From assembly GCA_016874005.1 (NCBI GenBank), contig VGVQ01000021.1, positions 4,005 through 68,004 on the forward strand: 64,000 nt of DNA, in the 5' to 3' direction. The stretch comes from Gemmatimonadota bacterium (lineage in GTDB: Bacteria; Gemmatimonadota; Gemmatimonadetes; Gemmatimonadales; GWC2-71-9). Below the pieces are notes generated by a model, which was not told the DNA's origin, searched no databases, and worked only from the letters and a program-made list of their open reading frames with translations. Below are positions 42,903 to 62,579 of this stretch, one piece after another (positions within the stretch are counted from its first letter, which is position 1; each line of letters starts with the position of its first letter). A program made the translations under genes and the position numbers.

Positions 42903-42910
42903 TTCCTCAG

Positions 42911-42935
42911 AAAAAAAAGCGGCCTAGGTCACCGC
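42911..42935 (-). terminator. Short hairpin plus U8 between the regulator and uppS
   Basis: Minus strand GCGGT-GACCTAG-GCCGC followed by TTTTTTTT. Confidence 0.45.
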
Positions 42936-43901: not shown

Positions 43902-43910
43902 GGTTGGACC

Positions 43911-43958
43911 ACGATAGCGAGGACGGCCAATCTTGTCAAGTACTCTATGTTACAAAGT
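43911..43958 (-). promoter_or_regulatory. sigma70 promoter with adjacent operator for the uppS cassette
   Basis: Minus TTGACA (43939-34), 17 nt, TATCGT (43916-11). ACTTTG-TAACA-TAGAGT (43958-43942) lies just upstream of the -35. Confidence 0.65.
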
Positions 43959-43992: not shown

Positions 43993-44397
43993 ATGCAACG
44001 CGACCTCGTCCTCCGCTGGCTCGAACAAATGCGGCTCTTGATCGCCCGGATCCTCCGGGGCGACCGAGACGCCGGGACCGAGCTCGCGGAAGCCGAGTTG
44101 GACCAGGCCATGGCCCAGCTTCTGGGCGGGGCCGCCGGTCTGGTCCAGCGGCTCGACGTCCCCTCGGTCGGGATGTTGCTCTCCGACCCCGATCGGATCT
44201 ACGGCTACGCCCAGGCCGTCGCCTTGAAGGCGGCGCTGGTCAGGGCCAGGGGCGGCCGGCCCGAGGAGGCCGAGGCCCTCGCCGACCGTGCCCAGGCCCT
44301 CGCCCGGGAGGCTTACCGCCGGTCGAGCGACCCGCCGCCCGAGTGGAAAGCCTGGATCGAGGCAATGGAGGAGGATCGCCATGTCCTGCCACGGTAG
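43993..44397 (+). CDS. Hypothetical all-alpha protein
   Basis: MQRDLVLRWLEQMRLLIARIL; TAGTTT 7 nt before ATG; overlaps the VHPO start. Confidence 0.6.
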   Translation: MQRDLVLRWLEQMRLLIARILRGDRDAGTELAEAELDQAMAQLLGGAAGLVQRLDVPSVGMLLSDPDRIYGYAQAVALKAALVRARGGRPEEAEALADRAQALAREAYRRSSDPPPEWKAWIEAMEEDRHVLPR

Positions 44398-45826
44398 ACT
44401 GCTGCTGGTCGCCGGTGGGCTGGCGTTAGGCGGATGCGGGCGGCAACTACCTCCGGCCGACCCCCGTTTCGTCGCCGAGCTGATGCAGAACCAATACGGC
44501 TGGATCCGGTCGGAACGGATCTCCCCACCGGTCGCCTCTCGGGTTACCGCTTACGCGGCGCTGGCGGTCTTCGAAGGCCTCGCGACCCAGTCGACCACCT
44601 TGCGTTCTCAGAGCGGGCAGCTCGCCGGTTTCGACCCACCCCCCGCCCCACCCGCTGACCAGCCGGTCGATCGGGTCATCGTGGCCTTGGCTGCCGAGCG
44701 GGTGGTCCTCGACACCCTGTTCCGGGAAGGCCTCCCCCAGACCCAGGCGGCCATCGCGACGGTCCTCGATTCCCTCCGGGCCTCCCGGACCGCCCTCGGC
44801 ATTGCCGAAGAAGTGGTGGCCCGCTCGGAAGCCCATGGGACCGTCCTTGGCGCCGCGATCATCGCCTGGGCGGCCCGGGACGGTTTCGACACCACCCGCG
44901 CCAAGCCCTGGGTACCCCAGAAAGGACGGGCCGTCTGGGTCAACAGTTCCGGGGTCGACGACTACGTCCCGCAGAACCTCTCCGGGGCGCGCGATCTGGT
45001 ATCGTTCGCCAACCCTTCGGCCAGCCTCAAACCGGGTGAGGCGAGCGAGCGGGCCTTGATCGTCAACCGGCCCAAGTCCGACGCGATCGCTACCCTCCGC
45101 GCCATCAACCCCGCCGGCGCCACCGAACCATGGTGGGGGACCCTCCGCCCCTTCATCCTGCGACGGGTGGACGAATGCCCCATTCCGGCGCCGCCGCCGT
45201 ACTCCGAATCGACCGGCTCGGCCTTCCATCAGGAAGGTCGCGCGGTGTTCGAGGCCAGCCGGCAGCTCACCGAGGAGAAGCGACGGATCGTTCTGTATTG
45301 GGCCGACAACCCGGGCCAGACCGGCACCCCCTCGGGGCACTGGCTCGCGATCGGGAGTCAGATGGTGGCGCAGCGCCGCCTCGATGCCGACGCGGCCGCC
45401 GAGTTGTTCCTGGTGGTGAGCCTGGCTCAGGCCGACGCCTTCATCGCGGGGTGGGACGTCAAGTACCGGACCATGGTGGTCCGACCCAACACCTACCTCA
45501 ACCGGGTCTTCGACCGCCGGTGGCGCCCGGAGATCATCACCCCGGCGTTCCCGGAGTATCCCTCCGGGCACTCGGTTCAGTCGGCCGCGGTCGCGACGGT
45601 GATGACTCGCCTGATCGGTGATTCGGTGGCGTTCGACGACAGCACCAACATTTCAATAGGGCACGCCGTCCGCCGTTTCTCGTCGTTCCGCGCCGCGGCG
45701 GACGAAGCGGGGATCTCGCGCCTCTACGGCGGCATTCACTTCCCGATGGCCATTACCAACGGTGCGTCGTTGGGGCAGTGCATCGGGAAGCTCGCACTCG
45801 AGCGGCTCGGCACCCGCCGGCGATGA
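44381..45826 (+). CDS. Vanadium-dependent haloperoxidase/PAP2 superfamily lipoprotein (copy 1)
   Basis: LALGGC lipobox; K-X6-RP (KYRTMVVRP), PEYPSGHS, SRLYGGIHF. Confidence 0.85.
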   Translation: MSCHGRLLLVAGGLALGGCGRQLPPADPRFVAELMQNQYGWIRSERISPPVASRVTAYAALAVFEGLATQSTTLRSQSGQLAGFDPPPAPPADQPVDRVIVALAAERVVLDTLFREGLPQTQAAIATVLDSLRASRTALGIAEEVVARSEAHGTVLGAAIIAWAARDGFDTTRAKPWVPQKGRAVWVNSSGVDDYVPQNLSGARDLVSFANPSASLKPGEASERALIVNRPKSDAIATLRAINPAGATEPWWGTLRPFILRRVDECPIPAPPPYSESTGSAFHQEGRAVFEASRQLTEEKRRIVLYWADNPGQTGTPSGHWLAIGSQMVAQRRLDADAAAELFLVVSLAQADAFIAGWDVKYRTMVVRPNTYLNRVFDRRWRPEIITPAFPEYPSGHSVQSAAVATVMTRLIGDSVAFDDSTNISIGHAVRRFSSFRAAADEAGISRLYGGIHFPMAITNGASLGQCIGKLALERLGTRRR

Positions 45827-45842
45827 GCCGGCCGGCGGCGAG

Positions 45843-48800
45843 CTACTTGGAGACCACCACCTCGCCGGCCCCCGGCGGCACCGGCGTCTCGGTCACCCGG
45901 CCGCCGGGCCACCGGGCCCAGACCTTCGTCGGGGTATCCGCCAGGCCGAACACCATGACCGCCCCGTTCTGAGACCAGTACCCCGACCCCGCCTGGACCT
46001 CCCGCACCGGGCCAAGGCGGTCGCCGTAGCCGACCCGAAGCTGAACCCCGACCCCGTCCGGATTGGACCGGTCACCCTGAACCCGGATCCGTAATCCGAC
46101 CTTCGCCCCGCGGTTGCGGAACAGGCGGGTCGGGGCTCCGTTCTGGGAAACGGCAAGGTCGACCCGGCCATCGCCGTCGAAATCCGCGAAAGCCGCTCCC
46201 CGCTGGTCGCCATAGACCAACAGCCCCGAGCGGACGCCAGCCATCGGGGTCAACGCCCCCGAGCCGTCACCCAGGAGCAGCAGGCCGCGGCCGTCGTCGT
46301 ACCGCGGCGAGCCGATCTCGGTGGGAAAGAAGTTCTGGCTCAAGACGACGTCTTCGTTCCCGTCGCCATCGAAGTCGGCGATCCCCAGGTACGACGCCGG
46401 GGCGAACTGACTCTCCTTGGGTAGCGGTCGAGCCTCGAAACGATCGCCCCGGTTGAGAAAGAGCATGTGGTCGAGCGTGTTCGCCCCCAGCCGGGGACTG
46501 TCCTTGGCGAGCGGCCCGAGCAGGCTGTCGAGGGTCGCGTCGGCGTAGGCACCGAAGCTGCGGACCCGATCGACCACCGACGGAATCGCCACCCGAACCC
46601 GGGCGTAGCTGTTGAGCGGAGCGAGCCCCCCCAATCGCTCATCGTGCCGAGCCAGCAGCATTTCGACGGCGCCCCGGTTCCCGAACGCCCCGAAGACCAT
46701 CACCAACGGGTGGAGGCTGTCGGCATTGAAGGTCGTGTTGCGACCCCAACTCGTCGCGACCAGATCGAGTCGCCCGTCGCCGTCGAGATCGCCGGTCGCC
46801 ACCCCGTTCCAGCGGCTCGACCACCGGTCGAGTCCCAGCGATGCCGGCGCTCGGGTGAACCTCCCTTTGTCGTTCACCCCGACAACGATCGAGCCCCACT
46901 CGCGGGCAAGCACCAGGTCGGCATCGCCGTCGCCGTCGATATCGGCGAACGACGCCGACGATACCATGCCGATCCCCTCGAGCCAGGGAGCCGCGTCGCG
47001 GCTCGGCCGGAATCGGCCTCCCTCGTTGAGGAGCAATTGCGACGAGGGAGACTCGGGGTACCGCGCCGGCACGGCCCGGCCCCCGACGAAGAGATCGAGG
47101 TCGCCGTCGCCGTCGATATCGGCGGCCGCCAGTGGCCCCGGGCTCGAGGAGCTGGCCGGTACCACGGCCTCGGCGCCGGCCGACAGCGATGACCCGGCCG
47201 CAGCGACCGCCACCACCGCCGGGTTGGCCACCATCTCGGCAGAATTTCGGGCCTCCCAGTTCGCCACCCCGGCCAGCACCTGGCTCCGACCATCTGGGCC
47301 TGGCAGGCCGAGCAAGCCGGTCCAGTCGGCCGCGGCGGTGGGGCCGTCGAATCGAGTGAAGGTGCCGCGGTCGTTGCGGAACAACGCCAGCCGACCGCCG
47401 CGCCCGGTGCCGATCAGGAGGTCCTCGTCGCCGTCTCGGTCGATGTCGAACCAGCTGACCCCGGGCCCCAGCTGAGACAGAGCGTTTGGCAGCAGGAACT
47501 GGCGCAGCCAGTCGTCGTACCCGGGTTCGGCGTGACGGTGGCCACCGAGGGCGGGCGTCAGGTCCTCGAGGAGCGGTTCCGGTGCCTTGAAGCCAAGCGA
47601 GTCGGCGGGAATGACGCTCGTCGCCGAGGCCGTGGTGATTTCGTAGAGCCGGTTCGGCGCCGCATCGCGAATCACGGTGCGACGGCCGTCGCGCCAGTCG
47701 ACGACGATGGTAACGGCGGAGGCCGCCCCGGTCGCGAACGTCGTCAGGTAGTCGCTGTGCGACAGATAGCGGCCCCCCACGACCACCTCGCGCTCCTGGG
47801 GATGGGGCGCCCCGCCGATCACCCGAACCTTGGCGCCCACCGCGCGAGTGTTCGGGGCATCGCCCACCAGCCGAACCGCGATCCGGGGCGCGGTGGCGTC
47901 ATTTCTGAGAAACAACGCCGGCGAGCCGAGTCGGTTGAGCACCATGTCGAGGTCGCCGTCGCCGTCGAGATCGGCGGCGGCCATCGCGTGGGTGATGTCC
48001 TCCTCGACCCCGAACCGCCAGCGCTCGCTGACGTCTTCGTAGGTCAGGTCACCCTTGTTCCGGTAGGCGACGTTCTTGAGCGCCAGCCGAGGGAATTCCC
48101 ATCGCTGCCGCTGCCACGCCACGTCGTTGAGCCGGTTCTGGAGCTTCTCCTGGGTGTCGGCGTCCATGACGTCCCAGGTGTGGCCCGTCCCGATCAGGAT
48201 GTCTTGCCAGCCATCGAGGTCGACGTCCATGAACATCGTCGACCACGACCAACCGCTCGCCTCGACCCCGGCGAATTCGGCCACCTCGCCGAAGGTGCCA
48301 TCGCCGCGATTGAGGAAGAGCCGGTTGCGCTGCATCTGAATCCGGGTCTCCAGATCGCCCGGCGTTTTCGGAACCGGCGAGTGGGTCGGCATCTGGGTTT
48401 TGAGCCGGCGGGAGTCGTTGCCGAGCATGTCGACCTCGTAGAGGTCGGGGCGGCCGTCGCCATCGACGTCGCCGACGTCCACCGCCATCCCGGAATTGCT
48501 GGTCTGGCGCTGGGCGCTCCACGGAGCCAATTGGAAGCGTCCAGCCCCGTCATTGATCCAGAATTCGTCCGGGTCCTGAAAATCGTTGGCAACGTAGAGA
48601 TCGGGAGCGCCGTCGCCGTTCAAGTCGCTGAACATCGCGCCGAGACCGAACCACTCCGGTTCTTCGGCCAGCGGCTGGCCTCGTTCGTCTCGGAACCGGT
48701 CGCCCTTGATCGGCACCGGAACGAAACGGCCGCCTTCGTTGAGGTAGAAGTGATCCGGATCGGCCCGTTCCACCAGGGAGACCCCATCGGCCCGGGTCAC

Positions 48801-49529
48801 CGCTCGGAAATCGCGGCGATACTGCGGCCGGACCTCGAACTGGTTGGGCCCGACTTGACGGACGACCTGGTTGAACGCCCTGAGCTGCGGCGCCACGCTG
48901 TCGGTGGCCGTGTACCCCTTGTAGTTGGCGACGTAGAGATCGAGATCGCCGTCGCCATCGACGTCGGCCATGGTGGCCGTGGTGCCTCCGACCGGGGTGT
49001 CGACGAGACCCAGCTCGCGACGCCGTTCGGCGAACACCCCGCGACCGTCATTGAGCAGCACCGTGGTGGGCGACCCGATCGCGAGGAGGATCAGGTCGAG
49101 ATCGCCGTCGCCGTCGATGTCGGCGAGCGCGGCGCCGCTCGAGAACTGGTTCGGCGCCGCGACCCCCGCGGCCGCGGTGATGTCCTCGAATCGCCAGCCG
49201 CCCCGGTTGCGGTAGAGCCGGTTGGGACCCTCGGTCCGGGCCAGAAAGACGTCGACCAGGCCGTCACCGTCGACGTCACCTAACGCCACGCCGGCGCCCT
49301 GGGCCAAGATCCGATTGTGCAGCAGGACCGAATCGCTCACCGTATTCGTGAAGTCGACAGCGAGGTCGTCCTGATTCATCTGGGTGAATCCCGTCGTTCC
49401 GCGGCCCCCGACGGACAGCGCCATCGACCGAAACCCGGCGCCGTCGATCCAGGCTGGGGGGGCCGGTGCCTGGGTACAACCCCACCCCGCGGCGAGCGCC
49501 GTCAGCCACCCGAGCCGTCGGCCGCTCAT
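45843..49529 (-). CDS. FG-GAP/VCBS repeat plus ASPIC-UnbV (CRTAC1-like) lipoprotein (copy A)
   Basis: Start MSGRRLGWLTALAAGWGC; many DxDGDGxxD repeats; two ASPIC/UnbV-type segments (GGRYLSHS, GSGYWSQN). Confidence 0.85.
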   Translation of the reverse strand: MSGRRLGWLTALAAGWGCTQAPAPPAWIDGAGFRSMALSVGGRGTTGFTQMNQDDLAVDFTNTVSDSVLLHNRILAQGAGVALGDVDGDGLVDVFLARTEGPNRLYRNRGGWRFEDITAAAGVAAPNQFSSGAALADIDGDGDLDLILLAIGSPTTVLLNDGRGVFAERRRELGLVDTPVGGTTATMADVDGDGDLDLYVANYKGYTATDSVAPQLRAFNQVVRQVGPNQFEVRPQYRRDFRAVTRADGVSLVERADPDHFYLNEGGRFVPVPIKGDRFRDERGQPLAEEPEWFGLGAMFSDLNGDGAPDLYVANDFQDPDEFWINDGAGRFQLAPWSAQRQTSNSGMAVDVGDVDGDGRPDLYEVDMLGNDSRRLKTQMPTHSPVPKTPGDLETRIQMQRNRLFLNRGDGTFGEVAEFAGVEASGWSWSTMFMDVDLDGWQDILIGTGHTWDVMDADTQEKLQNRLNDVAWQRQRWEFPRLALKNVAYRNKGDLTYEDVSERWRFGVEEDITHAMAAADLDGDGDLDMVLNRLGSPALFLRNDATAPRIAVRLVGDAPNTRAVGAKVRVIGGAPHPQEREVVVGGRYLSHSDYLTTFATGAASAVTIVVDWRDGRRTVIRDAAPNRLYEITTASATSVIPADSLGFKAPEPLLEDLTPALGGHRHAEPGYDDWLRQFLLPNALSQLGPGVSWFDIDRDGDEDLLIGTGRGGRLALFRNDRGTFTRFDGPTAAADWTGLLGLPGPDGRSQVLAGVANWEARNSAEMVANPAVVAVAAAGSSLSAGAEAVVPASSSSPGPLAAADIDGDGDLDLFVGGRAVPARYPESPSSQLLLNEGGRFRPSRDAAPWLEGIGMVSSASFADIDGDGDADLVLAREWGSIVVGVNDKGRFTRAPASLGLDRWSSRWNGVATGDLDGDGRLDLVATSWGRNTTFNADSLHPLVMVFGAFGNRGAVEMLLARHDERLGGLAPLNSYARVRVAIPSVVDRVRSFGAYADATLDSLLGPLAKDSPRLGANTLDHMLFLNRGDRFEARPLPKESQFAPASYLGIADFDGDGNEDVVLSQNFFPTEIGSPRYDDGRGLLLLGDGSGALTPMAGVRSGLLVYGDQRGAAFADFDGDGRVDLAVSQNGAPTRLFRNRGAKVGLRIRVQGDRSNPDGVGVQLRVGYGDRLGPVREVQAGSGYWSQNGAVMVFGLADTPTKVWARWPGGRVTETPVPPGAGEVVVSK

Positions 49530-50977: not shown

Positions 50978-51147
50978 TGGGAGAAACACCGACGAGCAAA
51001 GGGACAGCCGGAATCTACTCAGGCCACTCACCCACAGCGAACCGGTCGGCCGGTCGGCGTCGAGCGGGTGAAGTCGGATCCCGTCGATCCAGACGCCTCG
51101 ATCGCGCCCGATACCGGCAACCCGGCGCAAGCGGGTAGATTCCCTTG

Positions 51148-54855: not shown

Positions 54856-54886
54856 CAACCGCCGGGCCCGAGCCGTAATTGTGGCT

Positions 54887-55045
54887 ATGCTGCTCTACTT
54901 CGCCCCCGAAACCGTGCTCCCGATCGCCTCTGCTGCCGCCGCGGCGATTGGCGGGTTCCTGCTGTTCTTCCGCCGTGGGGCAACCGCAACCAAGGCCGTT
55001 TTCGATCGCCTGTTCCGTCGCGGCCGCGGCTCCGACCGGAACTAG
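54887..55045 (+). CDS. Small (52 aa) single-TM protein
   Basis: MLLYFAPETVLPIASAAAAAIGGFLLFFRR...; hydrophobic core then basic tail; TTGACA at 54852. Confidence 0.6.
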   Translation: MLLYFAPETVLPIASAAAAAIGGFLLFFRRGATATKAVFDRLFRRGRGSDRN

Positions 55046-55063
55046 CCCTCCTCCAGGCGACCC

Positions 55064-56872
55064 GTGCGCCTCGGATCGACCGTTCGTTCGCTGATCCTGG
55101 CTCTGGGAGCCGGCCTCGCCATCGGGGCCGCCGAAGTGTTGCTGGTCCAGGTGGCCCTTCGCGGTGGCGTCAACGTCCGCTTGAGCGCCGACTACGTCTG
55201 GATGGCGCCGCTCGCCAACGTGGTCGTGGCGGTGGGCCTGGTGGCCGGGCTGCTGCTCGCGGCCAGGTTCAAGACCGGCTGGGATCCCGCTGGGGCGATC
55301 GTCGCGACGCTCACGGCGCTCGGCATCACCTCCATCGCCTTCTACTACGAATCGCTCCACAAGGCGGCGGTCCTCCTCCTGGCCGCCGGCCTCGGGTCGC
55401 AAGCCGCCCGCCTGGCCCGGGTCCCAGCCCTTCGCCGCTGGTTCGCCCTGGTGCCGGTGACCACGGTCGCTCTGGCGGGGTGGATTGGGATCACCTCGGC
55501 CCGGCTCGTCGGATCCACGGCTCGGCAGGAGGCAACCACGATCGCCGGGCTGCCCAGCCCGCCGGCGGGAGCCCCCAACGTCCTGCTGCTGGTGCTCGAC
55601 ACGGTTAGGCGCCTGAGGTCGTACTCCGGCCTCGACTCGTCGGCGGCGACACCGGCCTTGGACGCGTTCGCGGCGCGAGGGACCTCGTTCGACCTCGCCA
55701 TCGCGCCGGCGCCATGGACGCTGCCGTCCCACGCCAGCTTCTTCACCGGCCGGTTGCCGATCGAGTTGTCGACGAGCCTGTCTGACCCACTCGACGATCG
55801 TTACCCCACCCTGGCCGAATTTCTCGCCGCCCGGGGATACCTGACGGCCGGATTCGTGGGGAACTTGAGTTTCGCGACCCGCTCGAGCGGCCTCGCTCGG
55901 GGCTTCGCGTACTACCGCGACTACGACCGGTCGGTTGGTCAAATCGCCCTCAGCTCGAGCCTCGGACGCGCGGTGCTGGGAGCGGGCTGGATCCGACGGA
56001 CGCTCGGTAATCACGAACTGGCCAATCGCCGCCATGCCCGCGACGTGGTCAGCGAGTTCCTGGCCTGGCATGACGGACATCGGCACCGGCCTTTTTTCGC
56101 TTTCCTCAACCTCTTCGACGGGCACGAACCGTACTTTCCCGAGGGCCGGTCCGGATCGAGCCTGTGGCCGGGGGCCCGCTGGACGAACTACGAGCACGTG
56201 GTGGGCCTCGAGGCCGGCGCCAACGCGGAGGTCGCCGACAAACGGAGCCTGACAGCCGACCAGGCCGCCATTCACGAGCAGGCGTACCTTCGAGCGGCGG
56301 CGACGGCCGCGAGCGAGGCGGCCGCGATGCTCGGTGAATTGGAACGCCGAGGGGCGCTCGACAATACCATTGTGGTGATTGTATCGGACCACGGCGAACA
56401 GACCGGCCAGCACCGGCTCTTCGGGCACCTCAACAGCCTCTACCTCCCGGCGGTGCACGTGCCCCTCGCGATCGTGGGGCCCAACGTCGGTCGCGGCGTG
56501 CGGGTCCGGCACGCCGTCGGTCTCAACGATTTGCCGGTCACTATCGCCCAGTTGGCCGGGGCGCTCGACTCACCGTTCCCGGGGCGATCACTCCTCGACA
56601 CCACCGAGGCCAACCGGGTGCCGGTCGTTTCGATGCTCGAGGGCGGCTATCAAAAGCAGGCGGGCTACCCAATTGGCCAAGGGCGGGAGATGTTCGCGCT
56701 GACCACCACCGGTCACCGATACATCCGCAACGCGGACGGATCGGAAGAGCTGTTCGACCTGCGCGATGGCGTTGCTGAAGCCAGCAATCGCGCAAGCGCC
56801 CCCGGCTACGCCGCTATTCTCGCGGCCCTCCGGCTCCAATTGGATTCGATTATCCGCTCGAGTCGGCCATAG
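55064..56872 (+). CDS. Membrane-anchored sulfatase-like (AlkP superfamily) hydrolase or transferase
   Basis: N-terminal TM helices, then LLVLDTVR, APWTLPSHASFFTG, VSDHGE and HVPL motifs. Confidence 0.8.
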   Translation: MRLGSTVRSLILALGAGLAIGAAEVLLVQVALRGGVNVRLSADYVWMAPLANVVVAVGLVAGLLLAARFKTGWDPAGAIVATLTALGITSIAFYYESLHKAAVLLLAAGLGSQAARLARVPALRRWFALVPVTTVALAGWIGITSARLVGSTARQEATTIAGLPSPPAGAPNVLLLVLDTVRRLRSYSGLDSSAATPALDAFAARGTSFDLAIAPAPWTLPSHASFFTGRLPIELSTSLSDPLDDRYPTLAEFLAARGYLTAGFVGNLSFATRSSGLARGFAYYRDYDRSVGQIALSSSLGRAVLGAGWIRRTLGNHELANRRHARDVVSEFLAWHDGHRHRPFFAFLNLFDGHEPYFPEGRSGSSLWPGARWTNYEHVVGLEAGANAEVADKRSLTADQAAIHEQAYLRAAATAASEAAAMLGELERRGALDNTIVVIVSDHGEQTGQHRLFGHLNSLYLPAVHVPLAIVGPNVGRGVRVRHAVGLNDLPVTIAQLAGALDSPFPGRSLLDTTEANRVPVVSMLEGGYQKQAGYPIGQGREMFALTTTGHRYIRNADGSEELFDLRDGVAEASNRASAPGYAAILAALRLQLDSIIRSSRP

Positions 56873-56920
56873 CGTCAAGGTGGCCAGGCCCGGCCAATCC
56901 CTGGGTTAGGAGCAAACGAA

Positions 56921-56948
56921 AAGGGCGGGCCGCGAACGGCCCGCCCTT
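56921..56948 (-). terminator. Intrinsic terminator after susD
   Basis: Perfect 12-bp stem AAGGGCGGGCCG, TTCG loop (minus strand), followed by TTCGTTT. Confidence 0.8.
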
Positions 56949-56962
56949 CCCGCTGCCTGCTG

Positions 56963-56992
56963 CTACCGGCGCCTACCGGCGCCTACCGGCGC
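56963..56992. repeat. 10-bp tandem repeat, 3 copies, containing the susD stop codon
   Basis: CTACCGGCGC at 56963, 56973 and 56983. Confidence 0.9.
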
Positions 56993-58704
56993 CGACGGCT
57001 GGTCTGCTTCTGCTGCTTTTCAATCTCCGCCCAGATTTCCCGGACGTTCTTCACGTTGCCAACGAGTGGATTGACCGATGGCGCGGCGCCGCCTGGATTG
57101 GTCGGCCCACCGAACGAGTAGATCTCGGCCCGGAGCAATTGGAGGTCCTTGGCCGGAACCGGCATCTGACGCGGAGTGTCCGGCCACATGCGGTTGTACG
57201 CCTCCGGCAACACGACTTGCGCCGAGGAGGTGTAACGCCGACGGTTGAAGTACGGAGCCGGCGCGGTCTCGTACAGGCCAACTTCCTGCTCATAGATGAG
57301 CGCGCGCAGCAAGGCTTGGGTGCCCTCGCCGCCGGTCAAGGCGGGGAGGCCGCCTTTTCCGACTCGACTGTTGTTGATCTTTTCCGCCGCAAGGGTGGCC
57401 GAGCCGTTGGTGCGGAGCAGGGCCTCCGCCCACAACAGGTCGTTGAAGACCTTCGAGTACACCGGAATCGGTCCTTCGCCGGTGGGGCAGTCGTCGTAGT
57501 ACGCCGAGAGACAGTGCTCGCGAACGTAGCCCATATTGCTCTGGTGGAACGAGCCGCGGCCCGGGATGAAGATTGCCAGGGGCGACCAAGCGAAATCGGT
57601 CCCCGAGTTCGGGGTTGCTTTGCAGCCGCCGTTTCCGAGGTAATCGTCTTCTGGACCGAAGCATCCGTCACCGACCCGCCGATCGAGGCCGTAGATACCG
57701 GCGTTAGGCTGCGGGTTCCCGTTGCCGCCGGGCCAGGGGTCAATCTGGTTGGTGGCGAAAAGGCGAGCCACCCGAGTATCGACCCGGACCGTCGTGTAGT
57801 CGTTTGCCCAGCGGTGATAGCCAGTGAAGAAATCGCCGTTCTGATCTTGGTACGCCTCGAAGTTGAACGCCGGCGCGTTGACCGCCGAACTGACGCCTTG
57901 GGAGGCGTAGGTCAGCACCTGTCCCCAATTGACCTGAGCGTTTTCTTCCGAGTTGCGCGGATAGTGCGCCAACAACTCGGCCTGCATGGTCCGGATTGCC
58001 TTGGCCAACTGCTTACTGGTGTAGACCGGGCCGGTTGGTACCCCGAACCAGGTCGCGCCGGTGCTGAAGGTCTTGGTATTCGCCAGCGTGTAGGCGGCCT
58101 CGAGCATCGTCATGGCCGCATCACGGATCGCCCCGCGGGGCTGCAATTGCAACGCGAGGACGTCGGTGTCTTCCTTGACCACGAAGCCCTGGTCGTAATT
58201 GAGCGCGATGAACGCGTGGGCAATACCCTGCGCCATCTGCGAGATCGTCTCGACCGCGTCCTTCTGGGCGCCCAGATCGGGCGGACTCGACGACTTACGG
58301 ATGGCGAAGAGGGCGTCGTTCGCGGACGACAGCAGGGAGTACATGCCGTACCAGTAGGGCTCGACCTGCTGGCCCAACTGGGTCGAGGTGCTGTTCACCC
58401 AGGCGCAGCGATTGGCGCAGTCGACGCCGTAGGACGAATAGTACCGTGAGTTGAAGTTGTTCCACGAGAACGACGTGTGGTCCGCCATGGCCGCGAGCGT
58501 GAGCGACGGGCTATAGGCGTACTTGGTGTTCATCCACGTCTTCATGGTGCCCGCCGCCGACGCGACGATCGTGGCGGGGTCGGAGAAGGCGCGCTCGCGT
58601 TCCGGCGCGTTCGGGTTGGTGACGTCGAGTTCACCGCAGGCGGCGAGTGGCCCGAGCAGGGCCACCGCCGCGAGGGCGAACCATCGGTTGGTCTTTCGAG
58701 TCAT
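56983..58704 (-). CDS. susD: SusD/RagB-like surface lipoprotein
   Basis: Start MTRKTNRWFALAAVALLGPLAAC.ELDVTNPN; LLWAEALLR, INNSRVGKGGL and QMPVP SusD-like C-terminal motifs; directly after susC. Confidence 0.75.
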   Translation of the reverse strand: MTRKTNRWFALAAVALLGPLAACGELDVTNPNAPERERAFSDPATIVASAAGTMKTWMNTKYAYSPSLTLAAMADHTSFSWNNFNSRYYSSYGVDCANRCAWVNSTSTQLGQQVEPYWYGMYSLLSSANDALFAIRKSSSPPDLGAQKDAVETISQMAQGIAHAFIALNYDQGFVVKEDTDVLALQLQPRGAIRDAAMTMLEAAYTLANTKTFSTGATWFGVPTGPVYTSKQLAKAIRTMQAELLAHYPRNSEENAQVNWGQVLTYASQGVSSAVNAPAFNFEAYQDQNGDFFTGYHRWANDYTTVRVDTRVARLFATNQIDPWPGGNGNPQPNAGIYGLDRRVGDGCFGPEDDYLGNGGCKATPNSGTDFAWSPLAIFIPGRGSFHQSNMGYVREHCLSAYYDDCPTGEGPIPVYSKVFNDLLWAEALLRTNGSATLAAEKINNSRVGKGGLPALTGGEGTQALLRALIYEQEVGLYETAPAPYFNRRRYTSSAQVVLPEAYNRMWPDTPRQMPVPAKDLQLLRAEIYSFGGPTNPGGAAPSVNPLVGNVKNVREIWAEIEKQQKQTSRRRR

Positions 58705-58731
58705 TGGCTCTCCATTCGTTCGGAATCGCAT

Positions 58732-61700
58732 TTAGAACGCGATCTCGATGTTGGCCGTGATGGTTCGGAACTGGGGATACTGGAACCAGTCCATCCGAGT
58801 CCGGAACGCCGCCTGACCGCCGTTGAGCTCGCTGAGCGGAGCCACCTCGGGGTCGAGACCCTTGTACGGGGTGAAAGTGAGCAGGTTCCGGCCGATCACG
58901 CCGACCCGGATCTCGCTCATCCACCGGCCCAAGCCGATCTTGTTCAACTCGCTGCGGTTGAAGGTGTAGTTGACCGACAACTCGCGGAGCTTGAGGAAGG
59001 TGGCGTCTTCGACGAACGCCTCGTTGGCGGAGGCACCGTTGTAGAGGCCGACCTGATAGAAGCCCTCGGCGATCCGCTGATCCGCCGACTTGTCGAACTG
59101 ATCGCACAGGTACGACGCGCAGTCCTGGTTACCCCAGTGCGCGGTGCCGTTGTAGATCTCGCCGCCCTGGCTCCAGTCGAGCAGGCCGGTGACGGAGAAC
59201 CGCTTGAACGCGAAGGTGGTGTTCAGTCCGGCGCGGAAGTCTGGCGCCGCCACACCGATATCGAAGATGTTCGTGGTCTTCGTGCAGCTCCCAGAACTCG
59301 AGGTCGCGCGGCACTCGACCCGGGCGATCGGCCGTTCGCCGTTGGCACCGCGGACCGACTTCCGCACCACGTAGCCGTCGCCGTTGATGACGACGCTATC
59401 CGCCGACCAGGTCTGGCCAGCGCCCGAGGCCGCCTTTTTGGCGGGATCGAGATACAGCTCTTCGAGGCTGCGGACCCACTTCTGACCACGCATCGTGCCG
59501 AGCCGCACCCCGGGCGCAAACTTGAAGGGGCTGAAGCTGTCGTCCGGACCATAACCGGCATCCGGCAACGGCCAATCGGTGATCGTTTCACGAGTCCGAT
59601 CGGCGGTGAAGTTCATCTGCAACGCGAAGTCACGCGAGTTGATGACCTGGGCACCGATGGCGATTTCGTGAGTCTTCGAATTCAAAGCACCGACGTTCTG
59701 CCACTGCGACACGAAGCCAGTGGTCGCGAGCAGCGGGGCCTGAACGATCTGGTCTTTGGTGTCCTTGTTCGAGTAGTTGTACTCGAACGTGAGCCGTCCC
59801 TGGGCCAACTCGATGTTGGTGCCAACCTCGAGCTCGGACGACTTCGCCGGCCGGAGGTTGCGGTTACCAAGCTGGTTCTTGATGAACACGCCAGCCGACG
59901 GCGCGAGGATCTCGTACTGGGCCCGATACGGCGGCCGGAGACCGGCGGTGCCGTACGACGCCCGAATCCGCCACTCTTCCGGACCGCTCTCGAGCCCGAG
60001 AAGCTGAGGAACCCGAACCGCGCCCGAGGCCCGCCAGTAGGTCGCGAACCGGGCATCCGGACCGAACAACGACGACCCGTCACGACGAACCAACCCGTCG
60101 AGCAAGACCTTCTCGTTGAAGTCGAGGGTCGCGATGCCGAAGGCGTTGCGGTTCCGGATGATCTCGGTCGACGAGAAGGCCCGCTGATTGGCCGGCTCGG
60201 TGCCCGGGAACTCCGGCACGTCCTTCACGATGAACTTCTGGGCCGATGCGAACAACCGGCGATCTTCCTGGTCCTCGTAGAGGTAGGCGCCCTTCGCCGT
60301 GATCCCGAGGTTGTTGAAGATCCCGCCGCCGTTGAGCCGCCAGATGCCGGTCAGCTGAGCGCCGGCGTTGTACGACCGGTTGTTGTCGGCCAGCCGCGAG
60401 AAACCGCCCGGACTGGCGTTGCCGGTGGCGCCGTAGAAGAGCACCGGCTCGCGATAAGAGAAGTCCTCGTTGACCTGGTCGAAGTTGTAGTTGCCTTCGG
60501 CCGACAGCCACGAGAACGGCCGCCACCGCAACCGGCCACCGCCGGTGAACCGGCTCCGCCCTCGGTCCTGCTTGATGGCGTACAGGTTGTACAGCGGGTT
60601 CGACGCGTTCGACCGCTTGTCGCGAATGAACGAGTTGAACGGCGACCCGTCGGCGTTGGTTCCGATCCGCTGCGATCCGATATCGGAGGTCTGCGGGCAA
60701 GTGAAGCCGTCGCCCCACTTGGTGCAGCCAGCGGTCGGATCGATGTGCGGCTCGAGGAAGGCGATCCCGAAGAACGCGCCACCCTGGCCGGTGCCCTGCG
60801 GCTCCTCGTTGTTCGAACGGCCGTAGAAAGCGTTGAACGAGATGTCGATGTTGTCGGTGAGCACCTGATCGATGTTCACCCGGTAGTTCTGCCGCTTGAA
60901 CCCGTTGACGTTGAAGACCGACCCCTCGTTCGTGGTGTTCTGGAACGAGGCATTGAAGTTGGTCCGACCTCGGCGCTGGCCGAGCGAAACGTACTGAGTG
61001 TAGAACGCCCCCGGATCGAACAGGGCACTTTGGGCCCCGGCGTAGGTCGGGTAGAGCCCGTCTTGGATATCCACCTTGACGGTCCGGCCCAGGCCATCCG
61101 TCCGGGTGGGGCAGGGAGCGCCCAGCAGCGTCTCGTCGCTCGCGGAACAGAGCGACGGAAGCACCCGAGACTGGTTGGTGCGCCGGAGGAAGTTCCCGTC
61201 CGGCTTGAGGATGTACGCGTGGTGCTGAGTCACCGGGTACGACCCGGGGATCTTCGACTGGCCAAACTCACCGCGGGCGGTCACCTGGATCTTGCCGTCG
61301 GCGAGGTTGGAGCCCCGGCGGGTGAAGATCTGGATGACGCCGTTGGCGGCGTTCGACCCATAGAGCGACGAAGCGGCGGCGCCTTTGATCACCTCGACCC
61401 GCTCGATGTCCTCCGACGCGATGTCGGCCAACGAGTAGCGGGTGATGGTGCCGTCGATGATGATCAGCGGATCCGAGGTGCCGGTGATGCTGGTCGCCCC
61501 CCGCAGCTTGATCTGCGGCGCGGCGCCCGGCATGCCGGTCGACGACTGGATCGACACCCCGGCGACCTTGCCCTGCAGGGCCCCGAGGGCCGTGACGGCC
61601 GGAGCCTGCTGCAATTCGGCCTCGGACACCTTGCCGACAGCGAAGGTCAGCTTCTTGGTCGAGGTGGCCTCGGACACGCCCGTTACCACGAGTTCATCGA

Positions 61701-62058
61701 GGCGGAGCGGATCGGCCACCAACTCGAAATTCTGCTCCTGGGTGCCCGGCGTGAGTTGGATCTGAACCGACTTGGGCCGGAACCCGAGCATCCGGGCCGT
61801 CAGGGTCACCGTCTGACCCCGGGCCGAAGCCGCACCGACCGTGATCTGGTACGTCCCGTTCGGCGCCGTGCTCGCTCCGAAATTGGTGCTGTTGACGGCC
61901 ACGGTGGCGCCGCCGAGCGGCTGCCCCTTGTCCGACATGACCCGACCGGTGACGATCGCCTGCTGCTGCGCCTGCGCCAGGGTAGCCCCCGTGCTCAGCA
62001 CCGCACCGGCGACGAGTCCCGCCCGAAGCCACGGACCGAATCGTTGATGCCTCATCAT
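58732..62058 (-). CDS. susC: SusC/RagA family TonB-dependent outer membrane transporter
   Basis: Carboxypeptidase-like domain, LDELVVTG TonB box, IKLRGATSI, DIERVEVIKGAAASSLYGS.AANGVI, RNLLTFTPYKGLDPE, C-terminal Phe. Confidence 0.92.
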   Translation of the reverse strand: MMRHQRFGPWLRAGLVAGAVLSTGATLAQAQQQAIVTGRVMSDKGQPLGGATVAVNSTNFGASTAPNGTYQITVGAASARGQTVTLTARMLGFRPKSVQIQLTPGTQEQNFELVADPLRLDELVVTGVSEATSTKKLTFAVGKVSEAELQQAPAVTALGALQGKVAGVSIQSSTGMPGAAPQIKLRGATSITGTSDPLIIIDGTITRYSLADIASEDIERVEVIKGAAASSLYGSNAANGVIQIFTRRGSNLADGKIQVTARGEFGQSKIPGSYPVTQHHAYILKPDGNFLRRTNQSRVLPSLCSASDETLLGAPCPTRTDGLGRTVKVDIQDGLYPTYAGAQSALFDPGAFYTQYVSLGQRRGRTNFNASFQNTTNEGSVFNVNGFKRQNYRVNIDQVLTDNIDISFNAFYGRSNNEEPQGTGQGGAFFGIAFLEPHIDPTAGCTKWGDGFTCPQTSDIGSQRIGTNADGSPFNSFIRDKRSNASNPLYNLYAIKQDRGRSRFTGGGRLRWRPFSWLSAEGNYNFDQVNEDFSYREPVLFYGATGNASPGGFSRLADNNRSYNAGAQLTGIWRLNGGGIFNNLGITAKGAYLYEDQEDRRLFASAQKFIVKDVPEFPGTEPANQRAFSSTEIIRNRNAFGIATLDFNEKVLLDGLVRRDGSSLFGPDARFATYWRASGAVRVPQLLGLESGPEEWRIRASYGTAGLRPPYRAQYEILAPSAGVFIKNQLGNRNLRPAKSSELEVGTNIELAQGRLTFEYNYSNKDTKDQIVQAPLLATTGFVSQWQNVGALNSKTHEIAIGAQVINSRDFALQMNFTADRTRETITDWPLPDAGYGPDDSFSPFKFAPGVRLGTMRGQKWVRSLEELYLDPAKKAASGAGQTWSADSVVINGDGYVVRKSVRGANGERPIARVECRATSSSGSCTKTTNIFDIGVAAPDFRAGLNTTFAFKRFSVTGLLDWSQGGEIYNGTAHWGNQDCASYLCDQFDKSADQRIAEGFYQVGLYNGASANEAFVEDATFLKLRELSVNYTFNRSELNKIGLGRWMSEIRVGVIGRNLLTFTPYKGLDPEVAPLSELNGGQAAFRTRMDWFQYPQFRTITANIEIAF

Positions 62059-62579
62059 GCTCCCTCGGTGGTGGTGGTGAAACGTCCGTCCCACAGAAAT
62101 CTCGACAACCAAGCCCAAGTGAAGCGTATCGATCACAGGGCGATCGCTCGCCGGCCCGGAAGCTCGGCAGGGTGGGAGCGCCCCACTCGGAATGGTCGTC
62201 GACTGAATCGACGCCTGAGCTTGCAGAAAACGAACCGGACCATGGCTCGGCCGCTATCCGCTTTGCCCACAACTACTTATCACTTCGTCCCCAGATCGTA
62301 TCGTGTCGAAAAGACACTCGACTGGACCACGGCCACGTGTCAGTAACACACGAACGAAGATCGATAGAAACAACCGGAACCCGACCGGGGTCGGTGTCAC
62401 CAGCGATATTCGATATGGGTGAGAAAAGACACGCCGACGCCCGTACCAACGGAGCCCGCCCGTCGGCCACTATGATACCGCCCCGGGGTCCAAATCGCAA
62501 TCGCCTTCGACCCTGTCGCCCCCGAAACCTGCTAGATTCGGAAGCGTCAGGTTACCCACCATTGGTTGGAGGCACTGCC

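What the first reader, a model, noticed from the sequence alone, without database searches (positions are those of the whole stretch)
44381..62058. Surface haloperoxidase-CRTAC1-SusCD locus: a possible halogen-chemistry utilisation system
Seen: about 18 kb encoding 2 vanadium-haloperoxidase-type lipoproteins, 2 FG-GAP/ASPIC-UnbV lipoproteins of about 1230 aa, a 52-aa membrane protein, a sulfatase-like enzyme and susD-susC. Both VHPOs, both CRTAC1-like proteins and SusD carry lipoboxes. VHPO2 and CRTAC-A overlap by 4 nt. No glycoside hydrolase is present, so this is not a classical PUL. Established: VHPOs oxidise halides with H2O2; SusCD pairs import ligands via TonB. From memory, similar VHPO/VCBS/SusCD neighbourhoods occur in Bacteroidota with no resolved function. 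Inference: a cell-surface complex that halogenates or oxidises a substrate (or oxidises iodide) on a Ca-binding propeller scaffold, coupled to import.
Basis: partly seen in the sequence, partly recalled or inferred. Interest (0 to 1): 0.8.

Follow-up and report, generated by a model that had tools for sequence, protein, structure and literature searches.

The report
Haloperoxidase-propeller module on SusCD importer
A soil-type Gemmatimonadales bacterium carries two copies of a gene pair, a vanadium haloperoxidase homologue plus a giant calcium-propeller lipoprotein, beside a SusC/SusD importer. The pair recurs across several phyla, is sometimes fused into one protein, and often sits in pentose and hemicellulose uptake loci, but its function is untested.

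Summary
The stretch encodes two homologues of Zobellia iodoperoxidase Zg-VIPO1, with all vanadate-site residues kept. It also encodes two 1,230-aa CRTAC1-like double propellers, a 52-aa membrane peptide, a membrane-anchored sulfatase-fold enzyme, a SusD-fold lipoprotein and SusC.

- A CRTAC-like gene lies next to the VHPO gene, on the same strand, in 65 of 82 loci from five phyla.
- The two families co-diverge as pairs.
- Three natural CRTAC-VHPO fusion proteins exist.
- The close orthologue (95% identical) of the biochemically proven Zg-VIPO1 sits in a CRTACx3-VIPO1 operon.

SusCD is the neighbouring importer in Gemmatimonadota and some Bacteroidota. Elsewhere the pair adjoins xylFGH/xylAB genes, SSF symporters, an arabinan operon with GH43 and GH51, or a GH20 fusion.

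The propeller is the commoner part (30 of 121 Gemmatimonadota genomes). VHPO is an optional add-on (8 of 121, always in genomes that have a propeller).

The sulfatase-fold gene cannot make formylglycine (T-L-P-S-H motif) and is a lineage-specific insert.

Best reading: a surface propeller-bound oxidative (peroxide/halide) accessory to glycan foraging. The chemistry is inferred, not shown. I found no paper that describes it.

The parts
44381..45826 (+). VHPO1: lipoprotein homologue of the vanadium iodoperoxidase Zg-VIPO1 (481 aa). Member of pair I.
   Evidence: PDB 4CIT E 2.9e-58 over two stretches. W358, K361, R368, S395-G396-H397, R447 and H453 are kept. PAP2 40.7 bits. Groups with L001 VHPO at 98/98 support.
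45843..49529 (-). CRTAC_A: 1228-aa double unit (7-bladed FG-GAP propeller plus UnbV_ASPIC, twice). Member of pair II.
   Evidence: FG-GAP_3 257 bits, UnbV_ASPIC 68 bits. PDB 9ETN (CRTAC1) E 4.6e-21. 13 DxDxDGxxD motifs. Clade with L008 and L013 at 100/100.
49526..50977 (-). VHPO2: second Zg-VIPO1-type lipoprotein (483 aa). Its stop overlaps the CRTAC_A start (ATGA). Member of pair II.
   Evidence: PAP2 30.7 bits. 53% identical to VHPO1. Motifs are kept. The overlap was read directly. Clade with L008 and L013 at 100/100.
50978..51144 (.). 167-bp divergent intergenic region between VHPO2 and CRTAC_B. It is the presumed junction of the inverted insertion and a promoter region.
   Evidence: Gene layout only. 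No consensus promoter was found.
51145..54855 (+). CRTAC_B: 1236-aa double propeller/ASPIC lipoprotein. Member of pair I.
   Evidence: FG-GAP_3 241 bits, UnbV_ASPIC 81 bits. 11 Ca-type motifs. Clade with L001 and L005 at 97/98.
54887..55045 (+). 52-aa single-span membrane peptide (MLLYFAPETVLPIAS...). Lineage-specific, travels with the next gene.
   Evidence: Translation and one hydrophobic span. A 51-aa counterpart lies at the same place in L001.
55064..56872 (+). Membrane-anchored alkaline-phosphatase-superfamily (sulfatase-fold) enzyme with a Thr in the nucleophile position. Not a formylglycine sulfatase and not a core part.
   Evidence: Pfam Sulfatase 91 bits. T-L-P-S-H at residue 219 aligns with S-x-P-S-R of PDB 3B5Q. 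4-5 hydrophobic spans. The same motif occurs in L001. The gene is found only in L001 among 18 Gemmatimonadota loci.
56983..58704 (-). SusD-fold lipoprotein (573 aa from ATG 58704; an upstream ATG at 58731 would give 582 aa).
   Evidence: No sequence-family hit. AF2 model pLDDT 82.7, pTM 0.86. The top 50 Foldseek PDB hits are all SusD/RagB, probability 1.0. The family is restricted to Gemmatimonadota.
58732..62058 (-). SusC/RagA-type TonB-dependent transporter (1108 aa).
   Evidence: TIGR04056 468.5 bits (cut-off 368); CarboxypepD_reg plus Plug. It is the best-scoring of about 12 SusC genes in the genome.
62580..63290 (+). Barrel-less 'plug-only' secreted protein (CarboxypepD_reg plus Plug), divergent from susC. 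A probable accessory.
   Evidence: Pfam. Homologues lie beside the SusC or CRTAC genes in L002, L010, L012, L016 and L018. Small plug-like ORFs lie next to VHPO in G097 and G061.

Best explanation
The stretch is one outer-membrane uptake locus.

Anatomy. The working core is a two-gene module: a Zg-VIPO1-type vanadium haloperoxidase lipoprotein and a CRTAC1-like calcium double-propeller lipoprotein. The module is present twice. Pair I is VHPO1 plus CRTAC_B. Pair II is VHPO2 plus CRTAC_A, and it is inserted upside-down between the two genes of pair I. A SusD-fold lipoprotein and a SusC transporter follow.

Shown here:
- the homologies and the intact vanadate/phosphate site;
- the pairing of the two families across phyla, their co-divergence and their natural fusions;
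- the repeated placement of the pair beside sugar importers and pentosan-degrading genes;
- that VHPO is an optional add-on to a more widespread propeller-SusCD system.

Inferred mechanism:
1. The propellers sit on the cell surface and hold a carbohydrate-rich polymer. This is probably pentose-containing, phenol-decorated cell-wall material.
2. The attached haloperoxidase uses H2O2 and a halide (I- or Br-) to make hypohalite or a peroxo-vanadate oxidant.
3. The oxidant modifies or breaks non-glycosidic, for example phenolic, cross-links, or otherwise loosens the polymer.
4. The released fragments pass to SusD/SusC and are imported using TonB energy.

The sulfatase-fold membrane enzyme and its 52-aa peptide are a recent insertion and are not part of the core.
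For: Enzyme identity
- VHPO1 matches PDB 4CIT at E 2.9e-58.
- In a 32-sequence alignment K361 and R368 are invariant. S395-G396-H397, R447 and H453 are at least 90% conserved. W358 is invariant and F390 at least 90% conserved.
- A fusion homologue superposes on 4USZ with TM 0.90.

Pairing of the two families
- A same-strand CRTAC-like gene is adjacent in 65 of 82 loci: Gemmatimonadota 17/18, Alphaproteobacteria 29/31, Betaproteobacteria 11/11, Bacteroidota 6/10. The gene order is flipped between clades.
- ATGA overlaps occur here and in L001, L002 and L028.
- The VHPO and CRTAC trees are congruent, including the paralogue split.
- Fusions P0133, P0212 and P0209 come from Chloroflexota, an unnamed lineage and Myxococcota.
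- All 7 other VHPO-bearing genomes of 120 sampled lie among the 29 with propellers (p = 2.6e-5).

Link to a proven enzyme
- The 95% orthologue of Zg-VIPO1 lies in a CRTACx3-VIPO1 operon.

Link to uptake
- SusC/SusD lie beside the pair in 9 Gemmatimonadota loci and in L084, and in G102, G061 and G097.

Link to glycans
- xylF (410 bits), xylB and a ROK regulator lie beside the pair in Proteobacteria. xylA, xylB and SSF lie beside it in Maribacter.
- Fusion P0212 lies inside araB/araD-ABC-GH43-GH51-GH43-araA.
- A CRTAC gene overlaps a VHPO::GH20 fusion by 4 nt.
- After CRTAC1, the nearest structural neighbours of the propeller are GlcNAc lectins.
Against:
- The catalytic residues are the same as those of PAP2 phosphatases, so sequence alone cannot prove halide oxidation.
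- No H2O2 source and no CAZyme is encoded in this locus.
- Iodide and bromide are scarce in most non-marine habitats.
- VHPO genes in 7 Chloroflexota loci lack a propeller neighbour. Two of the three fusions sit in non-carbohydrate contexts.
- The xyl association covers about half of the proteobacterial loci and is partly explained by shared ancestry.
- The fusion model gives only pTM 0.69 and no interface read-out.
- The propellers occur mostly without VHPO, so the oxidant step cannot be essential to the propeller-SusCD system.
- The phenolic cross-link target is my own chemical inference.
Confidence: 0.5

Rival explanations
1. Phosphatase reading. The 'VHPO' proteins work in vivo as PAP2-type acid phosphatases. 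They strip phosphate from a phosphorylated glycan, lipid or sugar held by the propeller, and the locus scavenges phosphate or a dephosphorylated sugar.
For: The PAP2 Pfam match is above cut-off. The same K/R/SGH/R/H site binds phosphate, and PDB 3BB0 is a trapped phosphate intermediate in apo-VCPO (listed). Several sources name homologues 'phosphatase PAP2'. An alkaline-phosphatase-superfamily enzyme with a Thr nucleophile lies in this locus. Periplasmic sugar-phosphatases feeding sugar importers are a known logic (established knowledge).
Against: The closest characterised relative (36-45% identity in the catalytic half, same two-bundle fold) is a vanadate-bound iodoperoxidase. The family consensus lacks the Asp of the PAP2 motif SRxxxxxHxxxD (HYxxA; VHPO1 has HFPMA), although VHPO2 keeps it (HFHSD). 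No pho-type genes are nearby. The AlkP-type neighbour is not conserved. The papers on Bacteroidota phosphate-utilisation PusCD systems do not mention these families.
Confidence: 0.18
2. Defence reading. The module is a surface peroxide- and halide-based protection or interference device used while feeding on plants, algae or neighbours. It consumes host-derived H2O2 with iodide or bromide, or halogenates signals and antimicrobials. The propeller serves as an adhesin. The sugar-uptake neighbours only reflect co-regulation by cell-wall sugars.
For: A Zobellia vIPO (vIPO3) is up-regulated on a brown alga, together with oxidative-stress genes (PMC9296495). VHPOs from diverse microbes halogenate quorum signals (PMC11312541 abstract). 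ROK/XylR-type regulators lie beside the pair in about 21 loci. Hemerythrin and AhpC-type genes lie near some copies.
Against: It does not explain the tight, translationally coupled and sometimes fused link to a 550-1,230-aa propeller. It also does not explain placement inside operons with GH43/GH51 or fused to GH20, or placement directly upstream of SusD/SusC in this and related genomes.
Confidence: 0.15
3. Iodine-capture reading. Iodide is oxidised at the surface to HOI/I2 or bound to an organic carrier, and the product is taken up through SusCD, giving iodine accumulation.
For: Zg-VIPO1 is iodide-specific (Fournier 2014, from memory; PDB title). Flavobacteriaceae strain C-21 accumulates iodine in a process needing H2O2, O2 and Ca2+, and its genome has five Zg-VIPO homologues (PMC5064120). 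The Ca2+ requirement would fit Ca-propellers.
Against: The propellers are not Tyr-rich (1.8-2.2% Tyr here), so they do not look like an iodination scaffold. The neighbours across phyla are sugar genes, not halide genes. The host is a non-marine-type Gemmatimonadales lineage in which the benefit of iodine is unclear. HOI should not need a 22-strand TonB transporter.
Confidence: 0.07
4. The genes are neighbours by chance or by inherited synteny only, and do not work together.
For: Upstream synteny (a prenyltransferase/HTH cassette) is also kept in L001 and L002. This shows that some neighbourhood conservation in this order is mere inheritance.
Against: Adjacency survives across five phyla with reversed gene order. 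Fusions have arisen independently. The paralogue-specific trees are congruent.
Confidence: 0.01

Closest known systems
Zg-VIPO1, vanadium-dependent iodoperoxidase of Zobellia galactanivorans (PDB 4CIT/4USZ)
   Same: Full-length homology (E 2.9e-58). Same helical-bundle fold. All vanadate ligands and the second-shell Trp and Phe are kept. It has a lipoprotein-type N-terminus. Its 95% orthologue is also encoded directly behind CRTAC-like propellers.
   Different: Overall identity is only about 35-45%. The Gemmatimonadota clade has an insertion of about 55 aa (VHPO1 residues about 187-246) and lacks the Zobellia loop CNPYVSVTRGHLMFATKKI. Activity and halide preference are untested. Here the gene precedes the propeller gene, and SusCD is adjacent.
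Vertebrate CRTAC1 (cartilage acidic protein 1, PDB 9ETN)
   Same: FG-GAP 7-bladed Ca-propeller followed by an UnbV_ASPIC domain. Sequence E 4.6e-21. Fold TM 0.71 for a single-unit homologue.
   Different: The bacterial proteins here are tandem double units of about 1,230 aa. They are lipoproteins, have no EGF domain, and are genetically tied to a haloperoxidase homologue and to importers.
Polysaccharide utilisation loci and SusCD 'utilisomes' of Bacteroidota (B. thetaiotaomicron Sus, levan and dextran systems; from memory)
   Same: A SusC TonB-dependent barrel with a SusD lid lipoprotein, plus further surface lipoproteins encoded alongside.
   Different: The locus has no glycoside hydrolase, lyase or esterase and no HTCS, ECF or SusR regulator. 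The cargo is propellers plus an oxidative or phosphatase-fold enzyme. The host phylum is Gemmatimonadota, and its SusD is too divergent for sequence models.
Curvularia inaequalis vanadium chloroperoxidase (PDB 1VNC), proposed to help attack plant cell walls (from memory)
   Same: A secreted VHPO of the same fold. A link between hypohalite chemistry and lignocellulose is the nearest precedent for the mechanism proposed here.
   Different: It is fungal, only distantly related (17-18% identity), stands alone with no propeller partner, and has no uptake system.
Fungal FG-GAP-type propeller lectins PVL and AAL-2 (PDB 2BWR, 4TQM)
   Same: After CRTAC1 these are the nearest solved folds to the propeller unit. 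They are Ca-dependent, multivalent GlcNAc binders.
   Different: Identity is low (16-17%) and TM about 0.5. They have no ASPIC domain. Sugar binding by the bacterial propellers is untested.
PAP2 non-specific acid phosphatases
   Same: Shared catalytic motifs KxxxxxxRP, PSGH and SRxxxxxH. The Pfam PAP2 match is above cut-off.
   Different: The proteins are twice the size and have the extra VHPO-type helical bundle. In VHPO1, and in the family consensus, the motif-3 Asp is replaced.

Membership tests
Vanadium-dependent haloperoxidase, Zg-VIPO1 clade | Full-length homology and fold of the two helical bundles | tested here: met
   phmmer against 4CIT: E 2.9e-58, with N- and C-terminal stretches. 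A fusion homologue superposes on 4USZ with TM 0.90 and rmsd 2.8.
Vanadium-dependent haloperoxidase, Zg-VIPO1 clade | Vanadate ligands Lys, Arg, Ser-Gly-His, Arg and His, plus the second-shell Trp and Phe | tested here: met
   VHPO1 has K361, R368, S395-G396-H397, R447, H453, W358 and F390. VHPO2 has the same motifs. These positions equal the Zg-VIPO1 numbering that I recall, plus 37.
Vanadium-dependent haloperoxidase, Zg-VIPO1 clade | Vanadate-dependent oxidation of halide by H2O2 | not testable with these tools
   This needs an enzyme assay.
PAP2 acid phosphatase | Three motifs: KxxxxxxRP, PSGH, SRxxxxxHxxxD | tested here: inconclusive
   Motifs 1 and 2 are present in both proteins. The motif-3 Asp is absent in VHPO1 (HFPMA) and in the family consensus, and present in VHPO2 (HFHSD). 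Pfam PAP2 scores 40.7 and 30.7 bits against a cut-off of 27.2.
CRTAC1 / ASPIC family | FG-GAP propeller followed by an UnbV_ASPIC domain | tested here: met
   The Pfam matches occur twice per protein. 9ETN E 4.6e-21. 13 and 11 DxDxDGxxD motifs.
SusC/RagA TonB-dependent transporter | Score above the TIGR04056 cut-off; N-terminal CarboxypepD_reg plus Plug | tested here: met
   468.5 bits against 368.25. The short signature TIGR04057 is just below its cut-off (43.1 against 46.2).
SusD/RagB | Match to the SusD sequence families (PF07980, PF14322 and related) | tested here: not met
   No Pfam, NCBIfam or PDB sequence hit. Homologues also have none on record.
SusD/RagB | SusD fold; a lipoprotein encoded directly after SusC | tested here: met
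   AF2 pLDDT 82.7. The top 50 Foldseek hits are all SusD/RagB, probability 1.0, TM 0.45-0.6. The gene abuts the susC stop and has an LAAC lipobox.
Classical polysaccharide utilisation locus | SusCD pair plus at least one CAZyme and a dedicated regulator | tested here: not met
   A SusCD pair is present. No GH, PL or CE domain and no HTCS, ECF or SusR-type regulator lies in 44381-63290.
Formylglycine (type I) sulfatase | C/S-x-P-x-R maturation motif | tested here: not met
   T-L-P-S-H at residues 219-223 aligns with S-Q-P-S-R of PDB 3B5Q. The same motif occurs in L001. The fold match itself is good (Sulfatase, 91 bits).

The most novel reading that the evidence does not exclude
The Zg-VIPO1-type haloperoxidase and the CRTAC1-like propeller form a physically coupled, cross-phylum 'oxidative foraging' device. 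The propeller would be a lectin-like holder, and the vanadium enzyme would use peroxide and halide to break non-glycosidic (phenolic) cross-links of pentose-rich plant or algal wall polymers. This would feed SusCD, ABC or SSF sugar importers. It would be a non-hydrolytic front end to glycan uptake, the first physiological role for this bacterial VHPO clade, and the first molecular function for the CRTAC1 family.
Probability: 0.25. Interest if true: 0.85.

Novelty: new variant of a known kind. Interest (0 to 1): 0.64.

Why it matters
Bacterial vanadium haloperoxidases of the Zobellia type have a crystal structure and an in-vitro activity, but I found no described partner or pathway for them. 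The CRTAC1 family, including the human cartilage and plasma protein, has no known molecular function.

The two families are genetically welded together from Proteobacteria to Bacteroidota and Gemmatimonadota, are sometimes fused, and are repeatedly placed in pentose and hemicellulose uptake loci. This turns two 'orphan' families into one testable system.

If the oxidative-foraging idea holds, it would add a halide- and peroxide-driven step to the known, hydrolase-based models of glycan uptake. It would also link microbial carbon turnover to halogen cycling in soils and coastal waters. The system is tractable, because Zobellia galactanivorans carries the module and has already supplied the characterised enzyme.

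Tried and rejected
- Riboswitch or other RNA upstream of susC: Rfam found nothing in the whole window.
- Consensus promoter and terminator scan: no more hits than in shuffled sequence.
- Thyroglobulin-like iodination scaffold: the propellers have only 1.8-2.2% Tyr here and about 4% in Zobellia, similar to their neighbours. Not supported.
- Phosphate-utilisation PusCD systems of Flavobacterium as a match: neither paper mentions PAP2, haloperoxidase, VCBS or FG-GAP.
- Literature on a VHPO-CRTAC or VHPO-SusCD link: eight searches found none. One of them was wasted, because 'SusC' matched 'susceptibility'.
- Fournier 2014 and Amachi 2007 could not be read. The Zg-VIPO1 residue numbers are therefore from memory, although they fit the alignment with a constant offset.
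- The Zobellia sp. genome could not be opened through the genome search. The upstream region was obtained with the look-up of encoding contigs instead.
- Sulfatase-fold gene and 52-aa peptide as core parts: rejected, because they occur in only 1 of the 18 Gemmatimonadota loci from other genomes.
- Interface between propeller and enzyme: the fusion model gives only pTM 0.69, and no PAE or coordinates are returned. No conclusion can be drawn on docking.

Full report
WHAT IS THERE

The window is contig C21 (4005-68004) of a 3.9-Mb, 97%-complete genome with 69% G+C. Its closest protein relatives are all from Gemmatimonadales MAGs.

Between 44381 and 63290 the real genes are as follows.
- VHPO1 (44381-45826, +).
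- CRTAC_A (45843-49529, -).
- VHPO2 (49526-50977, -). Its TGA overlaps the ATG of CRTAC_A as ATGA.
- CRTAC_B (51145-54855, +).
- A 52-aa one-span peptide (54887-55045, +).
- A sulfatase-fold protein (55064-56872, +).
- A SusD-like gene (56983-58704, -).
- SusC (58732-62058, -).
- A divergent 'plug-only' gene (62580-63290, +).

These assignments rest. Many long antisense ORFs in this high-GC DNA are spurious.

The genome has only these two VHPO genes and only these two double propellers, against about 12 SusC genes. In this genome the propellers are therefore not a general SusCD accessory.

THE INDIVIDUAL PROTEINS

VHPO1 and VHPO2. VHPO1 matches the crystallised Zobellia iodoperoxidase Zg-VIPO1 (4CIT/4USZ) at E 2.9e-58 over both halves. 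I built an alignment of 32 family members that span 30-52% identity.
- The Lys and first Arg of the vanadate site are invariant.
- Ser-Gly-His, the second Arg and the covalent His are at least 90% conserved.
- The second-shell Trp is invariant and the second-shell Phe is at least 90% conserved.
- Both window proteins keep all of these residues.

The same residues define PAP2 phosphatases. The PAP2 motif-3 Asp is absent in VHPO1 and in the family consensus, but present in VHPO2. The Gemmatimonadota clade carries an extra segment of about 55 residues.

The family is large. It has 6,199 representatives at 50% identity with E up to 0.001, and 728 with E up to 1e-30.

The CRTAC proteins. Each is two units of a seven-bladed FG-GAP propeller plus an UnbV_ASPIC domain. 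They have 13 and 11 DxDxDGxxD calcium motifs, and they match murine CRTAC1 (9ETN) at E 4.6e-21.

The SusD-like protein. It has no sequence-family match at all. An AlphaFold model (pLDDT 82.7, pTM 0.86) finds only SusD/RagB structures among its top 50 Foldseek hits.

The 'sulfatase'. It has four or five N-terminal hydrophobic spans. It has T-L-P-S-H where sulfatases have C/S-x-P-x-R, so it cannot make formylglycine and probably uses Thr as nucleophile. This resembles the membrane-anchored phospho-transferases of the same superfamily (the comparison with LtaS/EptA is from memory).

IS THE NEIGHBOURHOOD CONSERVED?

Adjacency of the pair. A pattern scan of one genome per species returned 598 relatives, of which I examined the best 80 together with two further Gemmatimonadales loci. 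A CRTAC-like gene lies next to the VHPO gene, always on the same strand, in 65 of 82 loci.

| Group | Loci with adjacent CRTAC-like gene |
|---|---|
| Gemmatimonadota | 17 of 18 |
| Alphaproteobacteria | 29 of 31 |
| Betaproteobacteria | 11 of 11 |
| Bacteroidota | 6 of 10 (two lack flank) |
| Ignavibacteria | 1 of 1 |
| Chloroflexota | 0 of 7 |

- In Proteobacteria the partner is a single 540-aa unit.
- The gene order is VHPO then CRTAC in Gemmatimonadota and Alphaproteobacteria. It is CRTAC then VHPO in Betaproteobacteria and Bacteroidota. Adjacency has therefore survived rearrangement.
- Start and stop overlaps recur.

Co-divergence. Maximum-likelihood trees of the two families across 16 Gemmatimonadota loci are congruent.
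- VHPO2 and CRTAC_A both group with L008 and L013 (100/100 in both trees).
- VHPO1 groups with L001 (98/98). CRTAC_B groups with L001 and L005 (97/98).
- The pairs L012+L016, L009+L015 and L014+L017 recur in both trees (bit scores).

The window therefore holds two paralogous pairs. Pair I is VHPO1 plus CRTAC_B, the type that carries SusCD in L001 and L005. It has been split by an inverted copy of pair II, VHPO2 plus CRTAC_A.

Fusions. Three database proteins fuse a CRTAC unit to a VHPO domain in one chain.
- P0133 (1000 aa) is from Caldilineaceae.
- P0209 (1110 aa) is from Myxococcota.
- P0212 (951 aa) was seen in two assemblies.

A model of P0212 (pLDDT 83.7, pTM 0.69) matches 4USZ with TM 0.90 and 9ETN with TM 0.71. 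The next-best matches for the propeller are the GlcNAc lectins AAL-2 and PVL, and the integrins.

Which partner depends on which. I sampled 121 Gemmatimonadota genomes. Propellers occur in 30 and VHPO in 8, and every VHPO genome has propellers (p = 2.6e-5 when the window's genome is left out). Nine of the 11 VHPO hits lie beside a propeller.

Propellers sit next to SusC with or without VHPO (G053, G055, G046, G076, G102, G061, G097). VHPO is thus an optional add-on to a more widespread propeller-SusCD system.

WHAT ELSE TRAVELS WITH THE PAIR?

- SusC/SusD are adjacent in nine Gemmatimonadota loci and in the Bacteroidota locus L084, whose SusD does match PF07980.
- The sulfatase-fold gene and the small peptide occur only in L001, so they are a recent insert.
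- A plug-only gene recurs in L002, L010, L012, L016 and L018. Small plug-like ORFs lie next to VHPO in G097 and G061.
- In Proteobacteria the pair is divergent from, or adjacent to, genes that pass NCBI's equivalog cut-offs for xylF (410 bits) and xylB (556 bits), together with ABC permease and ATPase genes and a ROK regulator. At least two of these components are present in 17 of 42 loci, and 6 of 7 long betaproteobacterial loci have them.
- The orthologue of the biochemically proven Zg-VIPO1 (95% identity, Zobellia sp.) is the last gene of a CRTAC-CRTAC-CRTAC-VIPO1 operon, divergent from an SSF symporter. All four products have lipoprotein N-termini.
- In Maribacter algarum the same operon follows xylB, xylA and the SSF gene.
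- Fusion P0212 sits inside araB-like kinase / araD-like aldolase / sugar ABC / FUSION / GH43 / GH51 arabinofuranosidase / GH43 / araA.
- Another database protein, P0253, fuses the VHPO domain to a GH20 hexosaminidase. Its gene is overlapped by 4 nt by a double-propeller gene.
- Two other fusions lie in uninformative contexts.

INTERPRETATION

Shown: the VHPO and CRTAC families form a conserved, probably physically interacting pair of exported proteins. The pair is repeatedly placed at the front of sugar-uptake systems, and in this genome it is doubled and attached to a SusCD importer.

Inferred: the propeller binds a carbohydrate-rich polymer. The enzyme then applies peroxide and halide chemistry to it, and the fragments are imported.

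I suggest phenolic cross-links of pentose-rich wall polymers as the target. Examples are ferulate bridges of arabinoxylan and phlorotannin links in brown algae. The reasons are these:
- electron-rich aromatics are the classic VHPO substrates;
- the neighbours are xylose and arabinose genes;
- a lignocellulose role has long been proposed for the fungal enzyme (from memory).

This last step is speculation. I give the whole reading 0.5.

The phosphatase reading (0.18) cannot be excluded from sequence. A defence or peroxide-removal role (0.15) and iodine capture (0.07) remain possible.

COMPARISON WITH WHAT IS KNOWN

Each part belongs to a known family: the Zg-VIPO1 clade, the CRTAC1 family, and SusC and SusD.

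The locus fails the definition of a classical PUL, because it has no CAZyme and no regulator.

Eight full-text searches found no paper that connects haloperoxidases with FG-GAP, CRTAC1 or SusCD genes. I could not read Fournier 2014 or Barbeyron 2016, which might mention the Zobellia gene context.

Earlier notes of this scan report the same SusCD-propeller-VHPO cassette in at least 17 other genomes. They reach similar, equally untested readings. They are leads, not independent evidence.

- the proteobacterial single-unit pair beside xyl genes;
- the natural fusions and their GH43/GH51 and GH20 contexts;
- the congruent trees;
- the asymmetry between propeller and VHPO within Gemmatimonadota;
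- the fold-level identification of the SusD.

LIMITS

- ORFs in the fetched loci were called with a crude longest-ORF rule, so the neighbour counts are lower bounds.
- The 80 loci are the best-scoring of at least 598, and are therefore biased towards relatives of the query.
- The xyl association is not corrected for phylogeny.
- No expression, localisation, activity or interaction data were obtainable.

Noticed in passing
window 62580-63290 (+); also L002:18341-19084, and near L010, L012, L016, L018; G097:C191:9472-9801; G061:C11:17134-17520: A barrel-less 'plug-only' secreted protein (CarboxypepD_reg plus Plug) recurs beside SusC or the CRTAC/VHPO genes in several Gemmatimonadota genomes. It may be an accessory or regulator of these importers.
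   Followed up: partly
window 54887-55045 and 55064-56872; L001:15194-15349 and 15359-17188: A 52-aa single-span peptide (M-L-L-Y-F-A-P-E-T...) always heads a membrane-anchored sulfatase-fold enzyme whose nucleophile motif is T-L-P-S-H instead of C/S-x-P-x-R. The pair is inserted between the propeller gene and susD only in this genome and in L001.
   Followed up: partly
VHPO1 residues about 187-246 (window about 44939-45118); alignment A1 columns about 250-315: The Gemmatimonadota VHPO clade has an insertion of about 55 residues that is absent from Bacteroidota, Proteobacteria and Zg-VIPO1. In turn, the Zobellia-type loop CNPYVSVTRGHLMFATKKI is absent here.
   Followed up: no
L030:2249-8136, L029:12769-17559, L086:1-3058, L087:8176-9828: Xylose genes lie directly beside the VHPO-CRTAC pair in Beta- and Alphaproteobacteria (xylF, xylH, xylG, ROK regulator, xylB) and in Flavobacteriaceae (xylA, xylB, SSF symporter).
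   Followed up: partly
L088:1885-16216: A natural CRTAC::VHPO fusion gene is embedded in a same-strand arabinan/arabinoxylan operon: FGGY kinase, class II aldolase, sugar ABC transporter, GH43, GH51, GH43, L-arabinose isomerase.
   Followed up: partly
L091:2-7092: A double-propeller gene overlaps by 4 nt a gene that encodes a VHPO domain fused to a GH20 chitobiase/hexosaminidase with CHB_HEX modules.
   Followed up: partly
window 41570-43958; L001:7113-9499; L002:75-2303: The upstream cis-prenyltransferase / HTH regulator / membrane-protein cassette is syntenic with the VHPO locus in two other Gemmatimonadales genomes. This is probably inherited synteny rather than function.
   Followed up: no
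window 62059-62579: An unusually long (520-bp), lower-GC intergenic region lies between susC and the plug-only gene. It has no Rfam match and no convincing promoter consensus.
   Followed up: partly
L085:11360-13164 and L086:11353-13102: In Zobellia and Maribacter the VIPO1 gene is followed by a conserved GyrI-like protein of about 299 aa and a protein of about 288 aa with no family match.
   Followed up: no
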